From NCBI GenBank assembly GCA_017654855.1, contig CM030332.1, positions 6,324,001 through 6,388,000 of the forward strand: 64,000 nucleotides of DNA. The letters are read 5' to 3'. The notes beneath the pieces are model-generated. The model was not told the origin of the DNA and made no database searches. It saw only the letters and a program-made list of their open reading frames with translations. Position 1 is the first letter of the stretch. Every line of letters starts with the position of its first letter. Made by a program: the position numbers and the translations under genes. This stretch comes from Podospora anserina. Taxonomy: Eukaryota. This document shows, piece after piece, positions 3,821 to 44,869 of the stretch.

Positions 3821-3891
3821 GCATCAGTGGTTTAGTGGTAAAATCCATCGTTGCCATCGATGGGCCCCGTGTTCGATTCACGGCTGATGCA
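3821..3891 (+). tRNA. tRNA-Gly(GCC)
   Basis: Acceptor stem GCATCAG/CTGATGC-A, D-loop TAGTGGTA, anticodon arm CATCG-TTGCCAT-CGATG, T-loop GTTCGATT; T-run downstream (Pol III terminator). Confidence 0.97.
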
Positions 3892-6570: not shown

Positions 6571-9500
6571 TCAAGGCGAAGAATACATTCCCCTCGTCCC
6601 ACTCCCCCCCATCCCCGAAGCCAAGCTGACACTCCTAGGCGTAACCGGCAACCCCATCTGCCCCCTCCTCTTCATGGTATTACTACTACTCCCCCCAAGC
6701 CTCAGCCCAGGACTCCCCAACCCAGGACTCCCCAACCCAGGACTCCCCAACCCAGGACTCCCCAACCCAGGACTCCCCAACCCATGACTCCCCAACCCAG
6801 GACTCCCCAACCCAGGACTCCCCTGCCCACCACCAACATCCAACCTCCCACCACCCCCTCGAAGCGCAACCATCAACTCCATACACCCCCTGACCCCCTT
6901 ATTAACCCCCCTCAATCCCTCCACCATCCCCGGCCCAAAGCTCAAAATCTTCTTCCCTAGCGCCTCCCTGATTTGTATCCCCAGGTTCGTCCACTTGTTG
7001 AACAAGCTCTTGCACGTCGACCATATCGGACCATTTTCACTGTAATTGAGCGGCGATGAAGAAGACAGCATTGAGCGCAGAATGTCCGTTTGCTGGAGGA
7101 CAGAGCTCGTTTTGGAGATGAGGTCTTCGAATAGGGGTACCATGGTGGATGATCGCAGTGAGTCGGTGGTTGTGGCGTTGTTGATGACGGATGAGAAGAG
7201 GGTGTCGAGGGACGGGAGGAAGGTGTGGATTAGGGTTGTGAGGTTGCGGAGGGAGGTGAGAAAGGCGGTTAGCTGGAGGGTTATGGGGGTCGTGACGTTG
7301 AATGTGGTGTTGGTGGATGAGGGGGTTAGGAGGCTGGGGAGGGGCGTTGATAGGGGTGGCGGGGAGGCGAAACGGCGGTCGTCGCTGTCGTCGTCGTTGG
7401 AGGAGACGGCGGAAGTGAAAGAGTCGGCTGATTTAGGGGTTTGAGGGATGACGGCTATGGTTGTTGTTGGGTAGCTTTGGGAGGTGGATCGCGATGATGA
7501 AACAGAGACGGTGACAGAGTTCGACTTGGGACGGTAAGGGATATCGGTGCGGACTTGCATAGGTGTCTTGGGGGTGATGGCCGCTCGTTTTGCACGAAGA
7601 GACGATGGCTGTTGCGGCTGAGGCGTTTGGGACCTGGGCGTCATTGGCAATGGCTGCGATGGTTGTCGACGACGGACAGAAGGAGGTGTCACTGGTGGTG
7701 GTTGGGAAGGACGAGCAGTCAGGATGTTGTTGCGGTTATTCAAAGGCCGGCTGGAAATGGCCACGCGCAGCTCCATGATGCCATGATAAACCTGCATGAG
7801 AAAGGTGCGCATATATCGGGGATCTCCATTGTCGACCAGTAAATCAACATTGCTGGCCAGCCGAGCACAAATCTGGACGTAGGCCAATATCAAGGCTGTG
7901 TAAGCGCGTTGCATAGGCCCGTAGTCTCGTGCTGATGTCCGACCGCCTGACGACAGTTCAAAATCCTGGATTGCCTGCTCTAGCTCTTCAAAGTACTTGT
8001 GGGTGTTGTAAAAGATCATCTCGAGACTGGAGCGCCGTGAAGTCCCGTCGTTGGTCAAACTCATCAACGTTTGTACGCACAAATGGATCTGATAAATGGA
8101 ATATAGAACCCCTTTGAAAAACTCCAAGACCGGGTCTGGAATTTGAGATTGATAACGACGTATTGGCAGAGCGGAAAGCTCGCGAACACACAGCGGCCTC
8201 TGTAGAGACGGTTCTTCCGGACTGAAAGGATTGGAGAAGGTCGGCGCACCACTGTAACTGAAACCGCGAAAATGACTGCTAAGCCGGTTCATATTGGGCA
8301 CATCTGTCGAAAGGCTTGAAGCCGAAGACGGCGCAAGAAAAGAGCTTGCTGATCCAGGGGTGATAGTCCTAGAAGAGATGGTAGACTCTGTCGTGCGAGA
8401 AGATGCCGTATCTGGTCTCTTCGGCTCCGGTGATACGGCCGGCTGCTCAGGCGGGCTCCGTAGATCGTCACTCGATGCCGTCATTGTCAGTGGTATCATT
8501 CCCGACGGTCTCCTGGTGAACCCATTGCTGTACTGAGAAAGAGACCGTCTGCTGGAAACCCTCGGTGGTCTAGACAAAGATGCAGATCTCGATCCTGGCG
8601 AGGATGCAATTCCGGATCCATTTACCTTGACCGGAAACCGGCCGCCTCGGCGTGATGGTACTCGCGGTGTATCAGCACTCTCACTCGACTCATCCCCCGT
8701 CTCTGTATCAGCCATCCCTTCAATGATACTCACACTGACACTCCGAGCTAGAAATTTCTTGATACGCTCAGTCACAACACGGTCTGTCTCGCTCTCGGCC
8801 AGAGCCCCACTGGACAGTTGATCCTGGACCGTTGGTAGCTGCAAGACCTCCTTGGGAGGGTAGATGATCGGATTGCCCGTGAACCTCAACCGCTGAAGGG
8901 AGACCATATTCGCCATGCTAGCGGGAAGTCTTGTAATTTGGTTCTCCTGAACCGAAAGCGCCTTGAGCGAAGTCAGCTTGGAAATCTCGGGAGGGAGCTC
9001 CCTCAACCGATTCCTTCCCACATCGAGGAACTCCAATGATATTAGATCACATAACTGTAGCTGTGGTCAGCATTAAGCCCTCAAATCCAGGTCAAGCAGT
9101 ACTCACTGCCAAAGGAAAGACCTCGAACGCATTGTTCCTCGCCGCAAGGTACCTCAAAGATGTACATTGCGAGAACCTCGGTGGAAGTCCCTTCAAGGCA
9201 TTGTGTGATAGCGCGAGCCTTTCAACCCCTGTCCTCAGGATATCGACAACCTCATCAGGTAAAACAGGAATGTTTTTCCCAATCAAATCTAGCGTGATTC
9301 CCGAACCAGTTGCCCCAGTGGTCCCCGACACTGGCGTTCTTGTCTCCTCATCTTCAATCGCTTTTCTCCTAGCCTCCCGAACGAGAGCAACGACCTGATT
9401 TGGCGAAAGCAACGGCCCAGTGTTGGCATTATTCGCATTGGGTGATGTACCCCTCGATGTACTCTGCCCTGTCGACAAAGGCGGGAATCGCTGCTGCTGC

Positions 9501-24186: not shown

Positions 24187-26262
24187 CTAAGAGGCCATGT
24201 AGGTGGAGGCATCAATACCATCCTTGGGGAACTCACTAGTAAACAGTTAGCAGACAATTCCGGAAGTTGACTAGGAAGGTATTACGTACGGAAGAGCGAC
24301 CTCGAAGCGTTTCTCAATGGCTTGGAGGACCTCCTTGTCCTGCTCGGTGGTCACGAAGGAGATGGCGAGACCCTTGGTACCGAAACGTCCAGCACGACCG
24401 ACACGGTGGAGGTAGGAATCGGCATCAGCGGGCATGTCGTAGTTGATAGCGAGGTTGATCCGCTCGATATCGATACCACGGCCGAAAACGTCGGTGGCCA
24501 CGCAGATACGCTTGTTGAACTCCTTGAACTCTTTGTATCTCTTGATACGCTCCTCTTGGCTGACACCGGAGTGGACGGCAATCGAAGGGAAGTTGCACTC
24601 GCGGAGGAGCTTATCCAGCTCGGTAGCGCGCAGGGTGCTTTTGACGAAGATGATGACCTGGTTGAACTGGAGGTCGTCCAGGAGCTCGTTCAGCTTACGG
24701 TTCTTCTCCCTCTCTTCAAGGGCAAGATAGTACTGCTGCAAGCCGTGGAGCGTCAACTTGGTGTCCTCATCGACGTAGTGCTCGGTGGGGTTCTGCATGA
24801 ACTTCCGGCAAATGGGCTTGATCTCGTCGGACAAAGTGGCCGAAAACATCATCACCTGCTTCTGCTGAGGAGTAGCACGGAAGATCTCCTGCACGTCACG
24901 GCGCATGTCTGATAGATTATTAGCGGTTTGGCCCAAAAAAAACCCCAAATGATAATCGCCTTACCAATCTGATCAAGCATCTTGTCGCACTCATCGAGGA
25001 CGAACATTCTGACACTGCCAAGACGGAGGTGCTTGTCGCGGACAAGGGCGTTCAAGCGGCCAGGTGTGCCGACAATGATGTGGGGGTGGGTATCCTTGTT
25101 CTTGAGTATCTCGGCATCCTTCTGGATAGGAGTACCACCGTAGAAGACGCCGGTCTTGATGTCGGGCATGTACTTGCTGAAGCGGTTGTACTCGTTGCGA
25201 ATCTGGAAGGCCAGCTCACGGGTGTGGCACATAACCAACACGGAGCACTCGCCGGCAACAGGCTCGACCTGCTGGAGGGTCGTGAGGACGAAGACGGCAG
25301 TCTTACCGAGACCGGACTTGGCCTGGCAGATGATGTCACCACCAAGCATAGCCTGGGGAATGGTGGTCTGTTGAACTGTAGTCGGGCATCGGATTAGAAC
25401 TGGATACGCAAATTTGGACAGAACGATGTGTGGGAAGGTTCATCAGAAGCCCGTCCATCGTCGCAGCAAAGACATGTCGACCACTCCTCCTCCTACACCA
25501 CCAATCTTCTCCTTCCAAACCAAGGTGTGCCCCGAGACCAGCTGAGCGAGATGCGGAAAACGCGACCACCTGTCACGGCAACGACGTTCCCACGCATCCG
25601 CGAAAACCACGACCAAAGGCCAATGGATGATGGAGACGGGGGAACAAGGTCCCTTTGTGAAACCTCCCGAAGGAGTTCGAGGTATGGAGCTCGAGTGAGC
25701 AATGAAGCAACCTTGTCGCTTTCCAAGCGCCGACTCAACCCAAGCGCGACAGCCGAGGCCATCTATGAGAGGTTTCTCTTGCGCAAGAGCTCATTGGATT
25801 TTCCAGAAGCATGGTTTTGCCGCTCGGGGGCGACCCCGAGCGGTCTGACGGTCGCATGGTGAAGAGTCACCAGGTGCTTGCGCAAAGCGCGTCGACGGCG
25901 CGCCAACCAATAGCTCCATCCGATGATAGTCTTGTTTCAAAAATTGCTTTGCGTAGCTTTGCCTTTGCTTGCGAGATGGACGGACCCGTGATGATAGGAA
26001 GGAATAACGGGATGCTGGGGATGAGATTTGGTCACTAACCCTCCGAGGGATGTTCGAAACCGCAATCGGCAATCGCACGGAGAAGTTCAGGCTTCAACAG
26101 AAAGTCGCGGAAACCAGTCGAGTGAATACCGACATAGGAACCCTTCTTGTCGACATTTTGGGCAGCAGCGGCATCCGCCTTCTTGCCGTTGGAAGCGGGA
26201 GCGGTGGTCTCTTGGTTGAGCTCGTCGTCGGAGTAGTCGATGAGATCCTCCTCAGCAGACAT
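24187..26262 (-). CDS. SUB2: DECD-box RNA helicase Sub2/UAP56; exons 26262-26040, 25375-24965, 24908-24290, 24235-24187
   Basis: Motifs [36 protein letters not shown] and [10 protein letters not shown]. All three introns have GT..AG ends and restore the frame. Confidence 0.97.
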
Positions 26263-26797
26263 GTTGGCTAGTTATTTGGCGAAAACTGGAAACGGTCGCA
26301 AGGCTTGTCGTGAAAACAAAAGAGGCGATGGCGCCAAAAGTCGTCAGGAAGAGTCGCGTCTGGTGAAGAAAATAAATCACCGAGTGGAAAGTCGCAAGGT
26401 GAGAAGAAAAAGGCGCGCGTTGGTGATGAATACCAAGACTATCAGATGGCGAGGGGTTGGCGCGTTGATGAGAAGAGGATGTCAGAAAAGGAAGGGAGGG
26501 AGCAGAAAGGCGAAAATAAGGTTGGAGGTCAAGCAGCACGCACAGCCTCAAAACCTGACCGCAATCAGCTCTAACCACGAGTGGCTTAGCCAGAGCCGGA
26601 AAGGTGCCGCTTGGCCCGTGCACTGGGCGCTGGTGGGGCCAACGGAACCGTCAGAGCACAGGCCACCCTGTGACAGTCCGAATTCACTTCACTTGGCCTT
26701 CTTGGCTGGGCAAGCTTTTTCTGTGTCAGTTGACATTCACAAACAATCGTGATAAAAAGAAAAGACAACTCGACCTTCATTCCAATTTCCTTTCATT

Positions 26798-27271
26798 ATG
26801 GCAAAGGCAAAAAATGGTGGCGGCGGGGTGCAAAACAAGGCCATCTATTCTCGACTATCATTTCTTCAGCAAGCAGCCGTTTTCCTCTCGACAGCAACTC
26901 TGGACGGTGATGGTTCCAATATCTCAGAGCTCAACCAGGATCAAAACCCACCACTTCAAGGTGCTGGAAGACGTCTAGCCACTGACTTGCGCGCTGTGTC
27001 CCTGAAGAGCCGGATTCGATTGAACCCAGCAGTAAAGCAGAGCATCTGCAAGTTCTGTGACTCGGTCCTCATTGACGGGGAGTCTTGCACTTCGGGAATC
27101 GAGAACAAGAGTAAGGGAGGTAGGAAGCCATGGGCCGATATTTTGGTTCGCAAGTGCCATGCTTGCGGCAGGGAGAGAAGGTATCCAGTGTGCACCAAGA
27201 GGACAAAGAGAAAGACAGAGAGGCCGGTTGCGACCCCCGATGAACCAGACATGATGGACCAAACTGGATGA
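26798..27271 (+). CDS. RPR2: RNase P/MRP protein subunit, Rpr2/Rpp21/Snm1 family
   Basis: SRLSFLQQAA helix, then KQSICKFCDSVLI and CHACGRERRYP zinc-binding CxxC pairs. Confidence 0.85.
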   Translation: MAKAKNGGGGVQNKAIYSRLSFLQQAAVFLSTATLDGDGSNISELNQDQNPPLQGAGRRLATDLRAVSLKSRIRLNPAVKQSICKFCDSVLIDGESCTSGIENKSKGGRKPWADILVRKCHACGRERRYPVCTKRTKRKTERPVATPDEPDMMDQTG

Positions 27272-39847: not shown

Positions 39848-39960
39848 GGGCGTGTGGCTCAGTTGGTAGAGCGTTCGCTTAGCATACTCAAGTCCCTTGA
39901 CTAAATATCAGGGATCCCATTGTATGCGAAAGGTCCTGGGTTCGATTCCCAGCTCGTCCA
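39848..39960 (+). tRNA. tRNA-Ala(AGC) with a 40-nt intron (39885-39924)
   Basis: Acceptor GGGCGTG/CTCGTCC-A with the G3-U70 Ala determinant. The anticodon arm TTCGC-TTAGCA[intron]T-GCGAA has the intron at the canonical 37/38 position. T-loop GTTCGATT. Confidence 0.95.
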
Positions 39961-44798: not shown

Positions 44799-44869
44799 TG
44801 CATCAGCCGTGAATCGAACACGGGGCCCATCGATGGCAACGATGGATTTTACCACTAAACCACTGATGC
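44799..44869 (-). tRNA. tRNA-Gly(GCC), identical to the copy at 3821-3891
   Basis: Exact reverse complement of 3821-3891; downstream T-run on the minus strand (A-run at 44766-44779). Confidence 0.97.

What the first reader, a model, noticed from the sequence alone, without database searches (positions are those of the whole stretch)
25441..25993. SUB2/UAP56 intron 1 (664 nt) is clamped by a ~31-bp sense-strand helix: candidate cis-regulatory or intron-encoded structured RNA
Seen in sequence: most introns here are 50-90 nt, but SUB2 intron 1 (26039-25376) is 664 nt. On the transcribed strand, the 5' arm CAUCA-cg-GGUCCGUCCAUC-UCGCA-a-GCAAAGGCA (25993-25960) pairs with the 3' arm UGUCUUUGC-UGCGA-c-GAUGGACGGGCU-uc-UGAUG (25474-25441), giving 5+12+5+9 bp. 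Three of the pairs are G-U. These would be C-A mismatches on the other strand, which points to selection on the RNA rather than a DNA inverted repeat. The helix starts ~46 nt after the 5' splice site and ends ~45 nt before the CUAAU branch motif (25397-25393), shortening the effective intron to ~110 nt. Established: Sub2/UAP56 is a splicing/export RNA helicase, its TREX partner YRA1 is autoregulated through a long intron in yeast, and intramolecular pairing is known to aid splicing of long yeast introns. Inference: this could be a helicase-sensing feedback switch, in which Sub2 unwinds or binds the clamp to cause retention or decay. Alternatively it is the closing stem of a stable intronic ncRNA.
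Basis: partly seen in the sequence, partly recalled or inferred. Interest (0 to 1): 0.85.

Follow-up and report, generated by a model that had tools for sequence, protein, structure and literature searches.

The report
Conserved clamp helix in SUB2 intron
The unusually long first intron of the fungal SUB2/UAP56 helicase gene is closed by an RNA helix whose two arms are almost unchanged across dozens of related fungi, which marks it as a functional splicing element and a candidate regulator of this essential gene.

Summary
SUB2 intron 1 (26039-25376, minus strand, 664 nt) contains a 33-bp sense-strand helix of -52.9 kcal/mol. It joins 25994-25960 to 25474-25440 and closes a 485-nt loop.

Comparison with 80 metagenome loci changes the picture. 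At least 50 loci have an intron at this site, and every one is long (365-818 nt), while intron 2 is 47-76 nt. Of 36 distinct introns, 33 carry the same arm pair, GUCCGUCCAUCUCGC and GCGA-N-GAUGGACGG. The arms are about 99% and 85% identical between two clades in which the loop, intron 2 and third codon positions are saturated. Pairing is kept through compensatory changes. G-U cells outnumber A-C cells 60 to 28, which favours the sense RNA.

[quoted passage not shown] My own transposon (MITE) idea is rejected. I found no Rfam match and no mention of SUB2 in three fungal RNA-structure screens.

Best reading: a deeply conserved zipper-type structural splicing element. Its invariant sequence suggests that a factor also binds it. 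Sub2 feedback remains plausible but untested, because no RNA-seq of this organism was available.

The parts
26040..26262 (-). SUB2 exon 1 (ATG at 26262; ends ...HPSE + G of a split Val codon)
25376..26039 (-). SUB2 intron 1, 664 nt (GTTAGT ... CTAAT ... TACAG)
   Evidence: exon-exon joint 25375/26040 in one X18 contig
25995..26033 (-). 5' linker, pyrimidine-rich and unpaired in the consensus. It holds a motif conserved across clades (TTTCATCCCC..AGCT.ATCGTT).
   Evidence: identity 0.83 and 0.79 within clades and 0.63 between them, against 0.58-0.62 for intron 2
25960..25994 (-). 5' arm of the clamp helix in this genome (35 nt)
25971..25985 (-). Near-invariant core of the 5' arm, GTCCGTCCATCTCGC
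   Evidence: 0.98-1.00 identity within clades and 0.99 between them
25964..25970 (-). AAGCAAA tract directly after the core. It is conserved in clade 2 as well, where its 3' partner is not conserved.
   Evidence: helix 6 is only 71.9% paired
25475..25959 (-). Enclosed loop, 485 nt. It is structured locally, fast-evolving and variable in length among relatives.
25440..25474 (-). 3' arm of the clamp helix (35 nt)
25449..25464 (-). Conserved core of the 3' arm, GCGA-C-GATGGACGGGC (the C is a bulge)
25398..25439 (-). 3' linker between the helix and the branch motif, pyrimidine-rich and unpaired in the consensus
25393..25397 (-). Branch-point motif CTAAT. The likely branch A is intron position 646, 18 nt from the 3' splice site.
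   Evidence: This is a motif match; the branch point was not mapped.
24965..25375 (-). SUB2 exon 2
24909..24964 (-). SUB2 intron 2, 56 nt, used as the internal size and rate control

Best explanation
The helix is a conserved long-range duplex in the SUB2 pre-mRNA. Once the 3' arm is transcribed, it pairs with the 5' arm and closes off a 230-640-nt loop whose sequence is not constrained. [quoted passage not shown] The spliceosome therefore meets an intron of about 100 nt effective length, the size it normally handles in these fungi. This is a zipper-stem-type structural splicing enhancer, and expression of an essential gene depends on it.

The arms are almost invariant in sequence, far more than pairing alone requires. 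An adjacent unpaired AAGCAA tract and a 5' linker motif are also conserved. I therefore infer that the element is in addition bound by a trans-acting factor, which would make helix formation a controllable step.

Shown: existence, position, deep conservation, compensatory changes, sense-strand bias and linker geometry. Inferred: enhancement of splicing, factor binding and regulation.
For: - Helix in this genome: 33 bp, -52.9 kcal/mol, present in the whole-intron MFE.
- Intron length: 50 of 80 related loci have a long intron at the same codon, and none has a short one. There are 36 distinct sequences of 365-818 nt.
- Size control: in 47 of 47 rows that carry intron 1, intron 2 is 47-76 nt.
- Arm motif: 33 of 36 distinct introns carry it at the same place. 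All 8 truncated loci with at least 100 nt upstream carry the 3' arm 77-95 nt before exon 2.
- Folding: 27 of 31 introns keep at least 8 of 9 core pairs in their own whole-intron MFE, and 25 of 31 have a mean pair probability above 0.5.
- Pair counts on 36 sequences: 73.3% of cells are paired, against 32-50% when partners are slid. The covariation score is 0.111 against 0.087 for shuffles (0 of 500 reach it), and 19 pairs show a change on both sides. Examples are GC:17/CG:7, CG:28/UA:2, and two adjacent double changes in L058.
- Strand: 60 G-U cells against 28 A-C cells.
- Rates: arm identity between clades is 0.99 and 0.85. The loop is 0.48, intron 2 is 0.58 and third codon positions are 0.48.
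- Linkers: 37-75 nt (excluding one regex mislocation of 31 nt in L016) and 41-77 nt, with medians of 51 and 53. They are unpaired in the consensus.
- Phylogeny: all clamp-bearing genes fall in one clade with 99/99 support.
- Precedent: zipper stems promote splicing in yeast (PMC12350175, passages; PMC12311795, abstract).
Against: - No functional data exist. No RNA-seq of this organism was found, so neither splicing dependence nor regulation is shown.
- With the core helix only, total linker length is 79-138 nt (median 100). This exceeds the 85-nt upper bound of the S. cerevisiae zipper-stem definition. With the full helix of this genome it is about 90 nt.
- In 4 of 31 relatives (L003, L017, L018, L069) the thermodynamic model does not form the core, and in L006 and L007 the probability is below 0.5.
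- L040 lies inside the clamp clade and has a 646-nt intron without the canonical arms. The clamp is therefore not absolutely required for a long intron at this site.
- Covariation power is low in the core because the core hardly varies, and the sequences are related. The tool warns that shuffle controls overstate significance.
- A plain zipper does not explain why the loop never shrank below 227 nt.
Confidence: 0.6

Rival explanations
1. Sub2/TREX autoregulatory switch. The loop delays synthesis of the 3' arm. During that window excess Sub2, or a partner loaded with it, binds the single-stranded 5' arm and its AAGCAA tract and blocks clamp formation. The intron is then retained. Its in-frame stop (GGT TAG straight after exon 1) sends the transcript to decay.
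For: - The arm sequence is conserved far beyond what pairing needs, and there is a conserved unpaired tract next to it.
- The loop is retained at 227-638 nt in all 33 clamp-bearing introns, although its sequence drifts.
- An immediate in-frame stop follows exon 1.
- Precedents: RPL7B is autoregulated by inhibiting its zipper stem (PMC12311795, abstract). The TREX factor Chtop autoregulates through intron retention and NMD (PMC5175361, abstract in the listing). YRA1 autoregulation through its intron is recalled, not read here.
Against: - There is no expression data.
- No conserved alternative, mutually exclusive pairing of either arm was found. The best alternative partners are scattered and weaker, at -14 to -28 against -28 to -37 kcal/mol for the core.
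- DEAD-box proteins bind RNA without sequence specificity and unwind only short duplexes (established knowledge, recalled). Sub2 itself is therefore an unlikely reader of an invariant sequence.
- An in-frame stop early in an intron is common.
Confidence: 0.2
2. Closing stem of an intron-derived stable or processed RNA. The helix protects or defines a species of about 300-550 nt, or is a substrate for an RNase III or Dicer enzyme, and this RNA has a function of its own.
For: - The intron folds more stably than shuffles (z = -2.72).
- There are lineage-specific inner helices with compensatory changes. In clade 2 a 17-20-bp inner helix occupies columns 147-169 with 301-322. Clade 1 has small hairpins.
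- A 33-bp near-perfect duplex is long enough for dsRNA-specific enzymes (inference).
Against: - Loop identity is 0.66-0.67 within clades and 0.48 between them. This matches intron 2 (0.61-0.62 and 0.58) and third codon positions, so there is no conserved RNA body.
- Loop length varies from 227 to 638 nt.
- There is no Rfam match in the window's intron or in 13 related loci.
- No RNA evidence for a stable species was obtainable.
Confidence: 0.08
3. DNA-level element: two inverted copies of a protein-binding site, or a cruciform, flanking an intronic regulatory region.
For: - Both arms are conserved in sequence and not only in complementarity.
- The loop of this genome holds two TTGCGCAA palindromes and a TGACTC (the reading as binding sites is recalled and was not tested).
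Against: - G-U cells outnumber A-C cells 60 to 28 in the sense orientation.
- The duplex is 11 kcal/mol more stable as sense RNA than as antisense RNA.
- Compensatory double changes keep the pairing (L058, L048/L049, and G-C to C-G between clades). Two independent binding sites would not be expected to change in this way.
Confidence: 0.04
4. Neutral relic of a transposon with terminal inverted repeats (MITE-like) inserted into a former intron of about 109 nt.
For: The 35-nt inverted arms are flanked in this genome by a 6-bp direct repeat, CCTTCC (26002-25997 and 25438-25433, read). Removing the arms and loop leaves 109 nt.
Against: - Only one contig per genome assembly (runs X1 and X13) aligns to the intron at 80% likeness or more, so it is single-copy.
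- The arms are conserved across a whole clade while neutral sites are saturated.
- The CCTTCC repeat and the outer 6 bp are not conserved in relatives (helices 1-2 are only 31-34% paired; alignment).
- An ancient insertion as the origin cannot be excluded, but it does not explain the present constraint.
Confidence: 0.03

Closest known systems
Zipper stems of S. cerevisiae introns (RPS17B and others; Rangan et al. 2025, PMC12350175; passages read)
   Same: [quoted passage not shown]
   Different: According to that paper, yeast zipper stems are only 20-30% conserved in sequence between Saccharomyces species and are often present in few orthologues. Here the arms are nearly invariant across a whole clade. 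The enclosed loop is 227-638 nt. Total linker length (79-138 nt with the core, about 90 nt with the full helix of this genome) lies at or above the paper's 85-nt limit. The organism is a filamentous-type fungus with otherwise short introns.
RPL7B intron autoregulation by inhibition of a zipper stem (Granas et al. 2025, PMC12311795; abstract read)
   Same: A zipper stem acts as a structural splicing enhancer, and its formation can be the regulated step.
   Different: RPL7B has a conserved alternative structure, bound by Rpl7, that excludes the zipper. I found no conserved alternative structure here, and no binding protein is known.
Long-distance (~530 nt) base pairing in the Neurospora crassa NCU01977 TPP-riboswitch intron (Li and Breaker 2013, PMC3597705; abstract read)
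   Same: Both are fungal nuclear introns in which conserved pairing over about 500 nt controls splice-site use.
   Different: That pairing involves a ligand-binding aptamer and selects between alternative 5' splice sites. Here there is no aptamer (no Rfam match) and no alternative splice sites were identified.
Autoregulated introns of TREX components: YRA1 in yeast (recalled) and Chtop in human cells (PMC5175361; abstract in the listing)
   Same: An mRNA-export factor gene carries an atypical intron whose retention lowers expression.
   Different: No structure comparable to this clamp was recalled or seen for those cases. Regulation of SUB2 through this intron is untested.
Introner-like elements and symmetrical stwintrons of fungi (PMC3609843, PMC8469720; abstracts in the listing)
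   Same: These are longer-than-usual fungal introns with stable predicted secondary structure.
   Different: Those elements are multi-copy and near-identical within a genome. This intron is single-copy and orthologous across many taxa.
Hairpin motif in longer Aspergillus introns (McGuire and Galagan 2008, PMC2467506; passage read)
   Same: The authors proposed that the motif reduces effective intron length or positions the branch site.
   Different: It is a generic motif class in introns averaging 183 bp. SUB2, UAP56 and helicase are not mentioned in the main text.

Membership tests
Zipper stem (definition of PMC12350175, section 27) | [quoted passage not shown] | tested here: met
   33 bp in the window. 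A core of 15 bp or more in 33 of 36 introns.
Zipper stem (definition of PMC12350175, section 27) | [quoted passage not shown] | tested here: met
   In the window, 45 nt and about 45 nt. For the core across relatives, 37-75 nt (plus one regex mislocation of 31 nt in L016) and 41-77 nt.
Zipper stem (definition of PMC12350175, section 27) | Total linker length of 42-85 nt | tested here: inconclusive
   About 90 nt with the full helix of the window, and 79-138 nt (median 100) counted from the conserved core. The limit was derived for the S. cerevisiae spliceosome.
Zipper stem (definition of PMC12350175, section 27) | The stem forms in vivo and promotes splicing | not testable with these tools
   No RNA-seq or probing data for this organism.
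Any Rfam 15 family (snoRNA, riboswitch, other) | A match to a covariance model | tested here: not met
   Only chance-level hits (E of 2.1 or more) in 24500-27000. No hits at E of 0.5 or less in 13 related loci. The window at gathering score has three tRNAs only.
MITE / TIR transposon | Terminal inverted repeats | tested here: met
   35-nt arms.
MITE / TIR transposon | A target-site duplication flanking the repeats | tested here: inconclusive
   A 6-bp CCTTCC repeat is present on both sides in the window but is not conserved in relatives. It lies in pyrimidine-rich linkers, where chance matches are likely.
MITE / TIR transposon and introner-like elements | Several similar copies in the genome | tested here: not met
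   One contig per assembly was laid at 80% likeness or more in runs X1 and X13. Copies more diverged than that would be missed.
Autoregulated TREX-gene intron (YRA1-like) | An atypically long intron in a TREX component gene | tested here: met
   Intron 1 is 664 nt and intron 2 is 56 nt. The contrast holds in 47 of 47 rows.
Autoregulated TREX-gene intron (YRA1-like) | Splicing or decay of the intron-containing RNA responds to the level of the encoded protein | not testable with these tools
   No expression data.

The most novel reading that the evidence does not exclude
The clamp is the core of a clade-wide feedback device on mRNA-export and splicing capacity. The long, sequence-free loop acts as a co-transcriptional timer. 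A sequence-specific factor, or Sub2/TREX recruited by it, reads the invariant single-stranded 5' arm and AAGCAA tract before the 3' arm is made. That reading decides between clamp formation, which leads to splicing, and intron retention with decay, and so sets the Sub2 level.
Probability: 0.2. Interest if true: 0.85.

Novelty: new member of a known kind. Interest (0 to 1): 0.62.

Why it matters
Sub2/UAP56 is an essential, dosage-sensitive helicase that links splicing to mRNA export. How filamentous fungi set its level is, as far as I could find, not described.

This element is a rare case of an intronic RNA helix that stays conserved after neutral sites have saturated. It has a simple, testable geometry: two linkers of about 50 nt, a core of at least 15 bp, and a free loop.

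- It offers a natural system for asking how long introns are spliced in organisms tuned to introns of 50-90 nt.
- It also allows a test of whether long-range pairing is used as a regulated step outside yeast ribosomal-protein genes.
- It is a ready candidate for a new RNA family, since the core motif pair finds orthologues directly.

Tried and rejected
- MITE or TIR-transposon insertion. This was my working idea. It is rejected because the intron is single-copy and deeply conserved.
- First chance statistic. RNAduplex between the intron halves was uninformative, because long sequences give huge summed energies. I replaced it with a local-stem score.
- Whole genome. None is held, and the records behind the loci are not held either. 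Copy number and other genes carrying the motif could therefore only be checked in the window, where the 11-mer core is not enriched: 4 hits at 1 mismatch or fewer, two of which are the arms themselves, against 1.25 expected.
- RNA evidence. No RNA run of organism A holds the stretch. The RNA runs laid (X18, X20) are metatranscriptomes with shares of 0.04, and they cover the exons with relatives' sequence. The intron interior 25408-25935 had no cover in them, which proves nothing. Two X18 contigs reach into 25936-26039 with many differences. They may be a relative's unspliced RNA or DNA.
- Conserved alternative pairing of either arm. Partners are scattered and weak. A 12-bp decoy is seen only in L003 and L007.
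- Extra pairing between the two linkers: none in the consensus.
- Nested intron or alternative splice sites next to the arms: none seen by eye in the alignments. This was not tested formally.
- Coding potential in the intron. There are only short ATG ORFs of up to 103 aa, and indels among relatives are not in threes.
- Selective retention of intron 1 in contigs: none. Every contig with intron 1 also has intron 2.
- Literature. No mention of SUB2, UAP56, helicase or DEAD in the main texts of PMC5640933, PMC8216456 and PMC2467506. The searches found no paper on a SUB2 intron structure. Supplements were closed and may list it.
Full report
**1. The observation**

SUB2 lies on the minus strand. Exon 1 (26262-26040) ends ...HPSE plus the first base of a Val codon. 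The intron runs from GTTAGT at 26039 to TACAG at 25376, which is 664 nt. Exon 2 continues with TT CAA CAG, that is VQQ. In the metatranscriptome run X18, one contig joins 25375 to 26040 and skips exactly 664 nt, with GT..AG ends on the minus strand. It was laid at 80% likeness, so it is probably a relative's mRNA and shows only that the exon junction is used.

The inverted repeat is real. Its arms are 25440-25474 and 25960-25994, and it is the top-listed pair of the 18 in the whole window. As RNA, the sense strand forms 33 bp at -52.9 kcal/mol and the antisense strand -41.7. There are four G-U pairs, one C/C mismatch and two single bulges. The whole-intron MFE contains the helix.

None of 2000 dinucleotide shuffles reaches its local-stem score. 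Of 764 real tiles of the window, 8 score higher. The six of these that I inspected are long, loose alignments between C-rich and G-rich tracts. SUB2 intron 2 is 56 nt.

**2. A first idea that failed**

The arms are flanked by a direct CCTTCC repeat, and removing arms and loop leaves 109 nt. I therefore suspected an old transposon with terminal inverted repeats. Two genome assemblies of the organism (runs X1 and X13) each place only one contig on the stretch at 80% likeness or more, so the intron is single-copy. The comparison below shows that the repeat and the outer 6 bp are peculiar to this genome. No whole genome is held.

**3. Relatives**

A scan of metagenome contigs with the exon 2 protein gave 80 loci. 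I located exon 1 and exon 2 in each by tblastn.

- 50 loci have an intervening sequence at exactly this codon, and all of these are long.
- 16 loci have none.
- 14 contigs end before exon 1.

Of the 16 without the intron:
- L022, L031 and L060 are uninterrupted full-length reading frames, so they are cDNA-like.
- L064 also lacks intron 2. Its reading frame breaks further downstream, and it groups with L061/L063 in the tree.
- The other 12 are distant sequences (49-80% exon-1 and 55-66% exon-2 protein identity). Nine of them were checked and also lack intron 2.

The window and 48 loci give 36 distinct introns of 365-818 nt, all with GT(T/C)AGT (GCAAGT in two), a CTRAY-type branch motif (absent in L061 and L063, which have TCAAAC) and ACAG. 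In all 47 rows where all three exons were found and intron 1 is present, intron 2 is 47-76 nt.

**4. The clamp in relatives**

An unbiased search for the best long-range stem in each intron recovers the same helix, at the same place, in most of them. A motif search finds the core pair GUCCGUCCAUC / GAUGGACGGAC, with up to three mismatches, in 33 of 36 introns. L040, L061 and L063 lack it. For L016 the regular expression mislocated the 5' arm, and its helix is shown.

All 8 truncated loci with at least 100 nt upstream of exon 2 carry the 3' arm 77-95 nt before the exon. L045 and L046 carry both arms.

In their own whole-intron folds, 27 of 31 introns keep at least 8 of 9 core pairs, and 25 of 31 have a mean pair probability above 0.5. 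L003, L017, L018 and L069 do not, and L006 and L007 are near 0.45.

RNAalifold run separately on two clades returns the clamp as the dominant consensus feature in both.

In a protein tree, all clamp-bearing genes fall in one clade with 99/99 support. That clade has two subclades. L061 and L063 have a 417-nt intron without the motif and lie outside it. I did not establish taxon names.

**5. Is it RNA pairing that is conserved?**

On the 36-sequence alignment A1, with the window's 33 pairs:
- 73.3% of cells are standard pairs, against 32-50% when the 3' partners are slid by 1-3 columns.
- The covariation score is 0.111, against 0.087 for shuffles (0 of 500 reach it).
- 19 pairs show a change on both sides.

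The 11-bp core is paired in 91.8% of cells but hardly varies, so it carries little covariation signal. The informative pairs are these:
- 78/971: GC 17, CG 7
- 80/969: UA 20, UG 14, CG 2
- 91/948: CG 28, UA 2
- 106/928 and 107/927
- two adjacent double substitutions in L058 (CCGUCC/GGACGG becomes CCAGCC/GGCUGG)

Over 24 core pairs in 33 sequences there are 615 Watson-Crick cells, 60 G-U, 28 A-C, 64 other and 25 gapped. The excess of G-U over A-C favours the transcribed strand. The sequences are related, so these counts are not independent events, and the tool itself warns that the shuffle control overstates significance.

**6. What is and is not constrained**

| Region | Within clade 1 | Within clade 2 | Between clades |
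|---|---|---|---|
| 5' arm | 0.98 | 1.00 | 0.99 |
| 3' arm | 0.92 | 0.92 | 0.85 |
| 5' linker | 0.83 | 0.79 | 0.63 |
| 3' linker | 0.72 | 0.76 | 0.58 |
| Loop | 0.67 | 0.66 | 0.48 |
| Intron 2 | 0.61 | 0.62 | 0.58 |
| Exon 2 third positions | 0.66 | 0.54 | 0.48 |

The arms are frozen while the loop drifts like neutral sequence. The AAGCAA tract after the 5' core is conserved even in clade 2, where its partner on the 3' side is not.

Geometry:
- The 5' linker is 37-75 nt (one regex mislocation, 31 nt in L016, aside) with a median of 51.
- The 3' linker to the branch A is 41-77 nt with a median of 53. The two are often nearly equal within a sequence.
- The loop is 227-638 nt with a median of 449.

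The linkers are unpaired in the consensus. Inside the loop, clade 2 has a strongly conserved inner helix and clade 1 has several small hairpins with compensatory changes, but nothing is shared between the clades.

**7. What it is not**

There is no Rfam 15 match in the intron, in 13 related loci or elsewhere in the window apart from three tRNAs. There is no conserved ORF. The core motif is not enriched elsewhere in the window. I found no conserved alternative partner for either arm.

**8. Mechanism**

The best-supported reading is a structural splicing enhancer of the zipper-stem kind. [quoted passage not shown] The stem length and the two distance conditions are met. The total-linker condition is borderline, at about 90 nt here and 79-138 nt from the core.

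Two features go beyond a generic zipper. According to that paper, yeast zipper stems are only 20-30% conserved in sequence, whereas here the arms are nearly invariant. In addition, the loop has not been lost in any clamp-bearing intron seen. Sequence invariance together with maintained pairing suggests recognition by a factor, and RPL7B shows that a zipper stem can be the regulated step (PMC12311795). Whether Sub2 itself is involved cannot be decided here.

I put 0.6 on a constitutive or factor-assisted zipper, 0.2 on a Sub2/TREX feedback device, and small weights on a stable intronic RNA, a DNA-level element and a neutral transposon relic.

**9. Novelty**

Long-range intronic helices that aid splicing are a known kind, in yeast and in the Neurospora TPP-riboswitch intron (PMC3597705). 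This particular element appears to be undescribed:
- It has no Rfam family.
- SUB2, UAP56, helicase and DEAD do not occur in the main texts of three fungal RNA-structure screens.
- Three literature searches found no relevant paper.

**10. Limits**

- All comparative sequences come from metagenome contigs, capped at the best 80 of 158 confirmed relatives.
- Taxon names are unknown.
- There is no expression or probing data.
- Branch points are motif matches only.

Noticed in passing
window 6706-6823: A tandem array of a 15-nt unit (CCCAGGACTCCCCAA), 7.9 copies at 98% match. It sits inside a C-rich/G-rich low-complexity region that gave the highest loose-stem scores in the window.
   Followed up: partly
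window 3821-3891 (+), 44799-44869 (-), 39848-39960 (+): Two tRNA-Gly(GCC) genes with identical Rfam scores lie on opposite strands about 41 kb apart. A third tRNA match spans 113 nt, so it probably contains an intron. Rfam reports it but ARAGORN does not.
   Followed up: no
window about 26000-26023 (-), and the same columns in L003-L074: [quoted passage not shown] It is shared by both clades although it is unpaired. It may be a protein-binding site.
   Followed up: partly
L023:842-867 with L023:985-1009 (and the same columns in L024-L074, L048): Clade 2 introns have a second, inner long-range helix (GAUCCUGGRAUGUCUCU / AGAGACWUCCAGGAUC) with compensatory changes in L033, L025 and L048. It has no counterpart in the window's clade.
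   Followed up: partly
L040:3283-3928; L061:2218-2634; L063:113-529: Three long introns at the same site lack the canonical arms. L040 lies inside the clamp clade. Its best stem is displaced to intron positions 138-175 and 457-491, with a GGUCCAAUGUC-like arm. L061 and L063 lie outside the clade and have only a weak 14-bp helix at the equivalent place.
   Followed up: partly
all clamp-bearing introns: The two linkers are nearly equal in length within each sequence (for example 54/54, 60/59, 59/58, 51/48, 45/43, 38/41), although they differ between lineages. This suggests a symmetric geometric constraint.
   Followed up: no
window 25878-25885 and 25779-25786 (-); 25820-25843: The loop of this genome holds two TTGCGCAA palindromes and a perfect 10-bp hairpin (CCGCTCGGGG/CCCCGAGCGG). 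A GCGCAAGCGA-like block recurs in both clades' loops.
   Followed up: no
L003, L006, L007 (intron positions about 142-168): A 12-bp decoy (CGUUCAUUGUCG) can pair with the 3' arm in place of the 5' arm. It is probably the reason why the clamp is not in the predicted MFE of L003. It is confined to this small subclade.
   Followed up: partly
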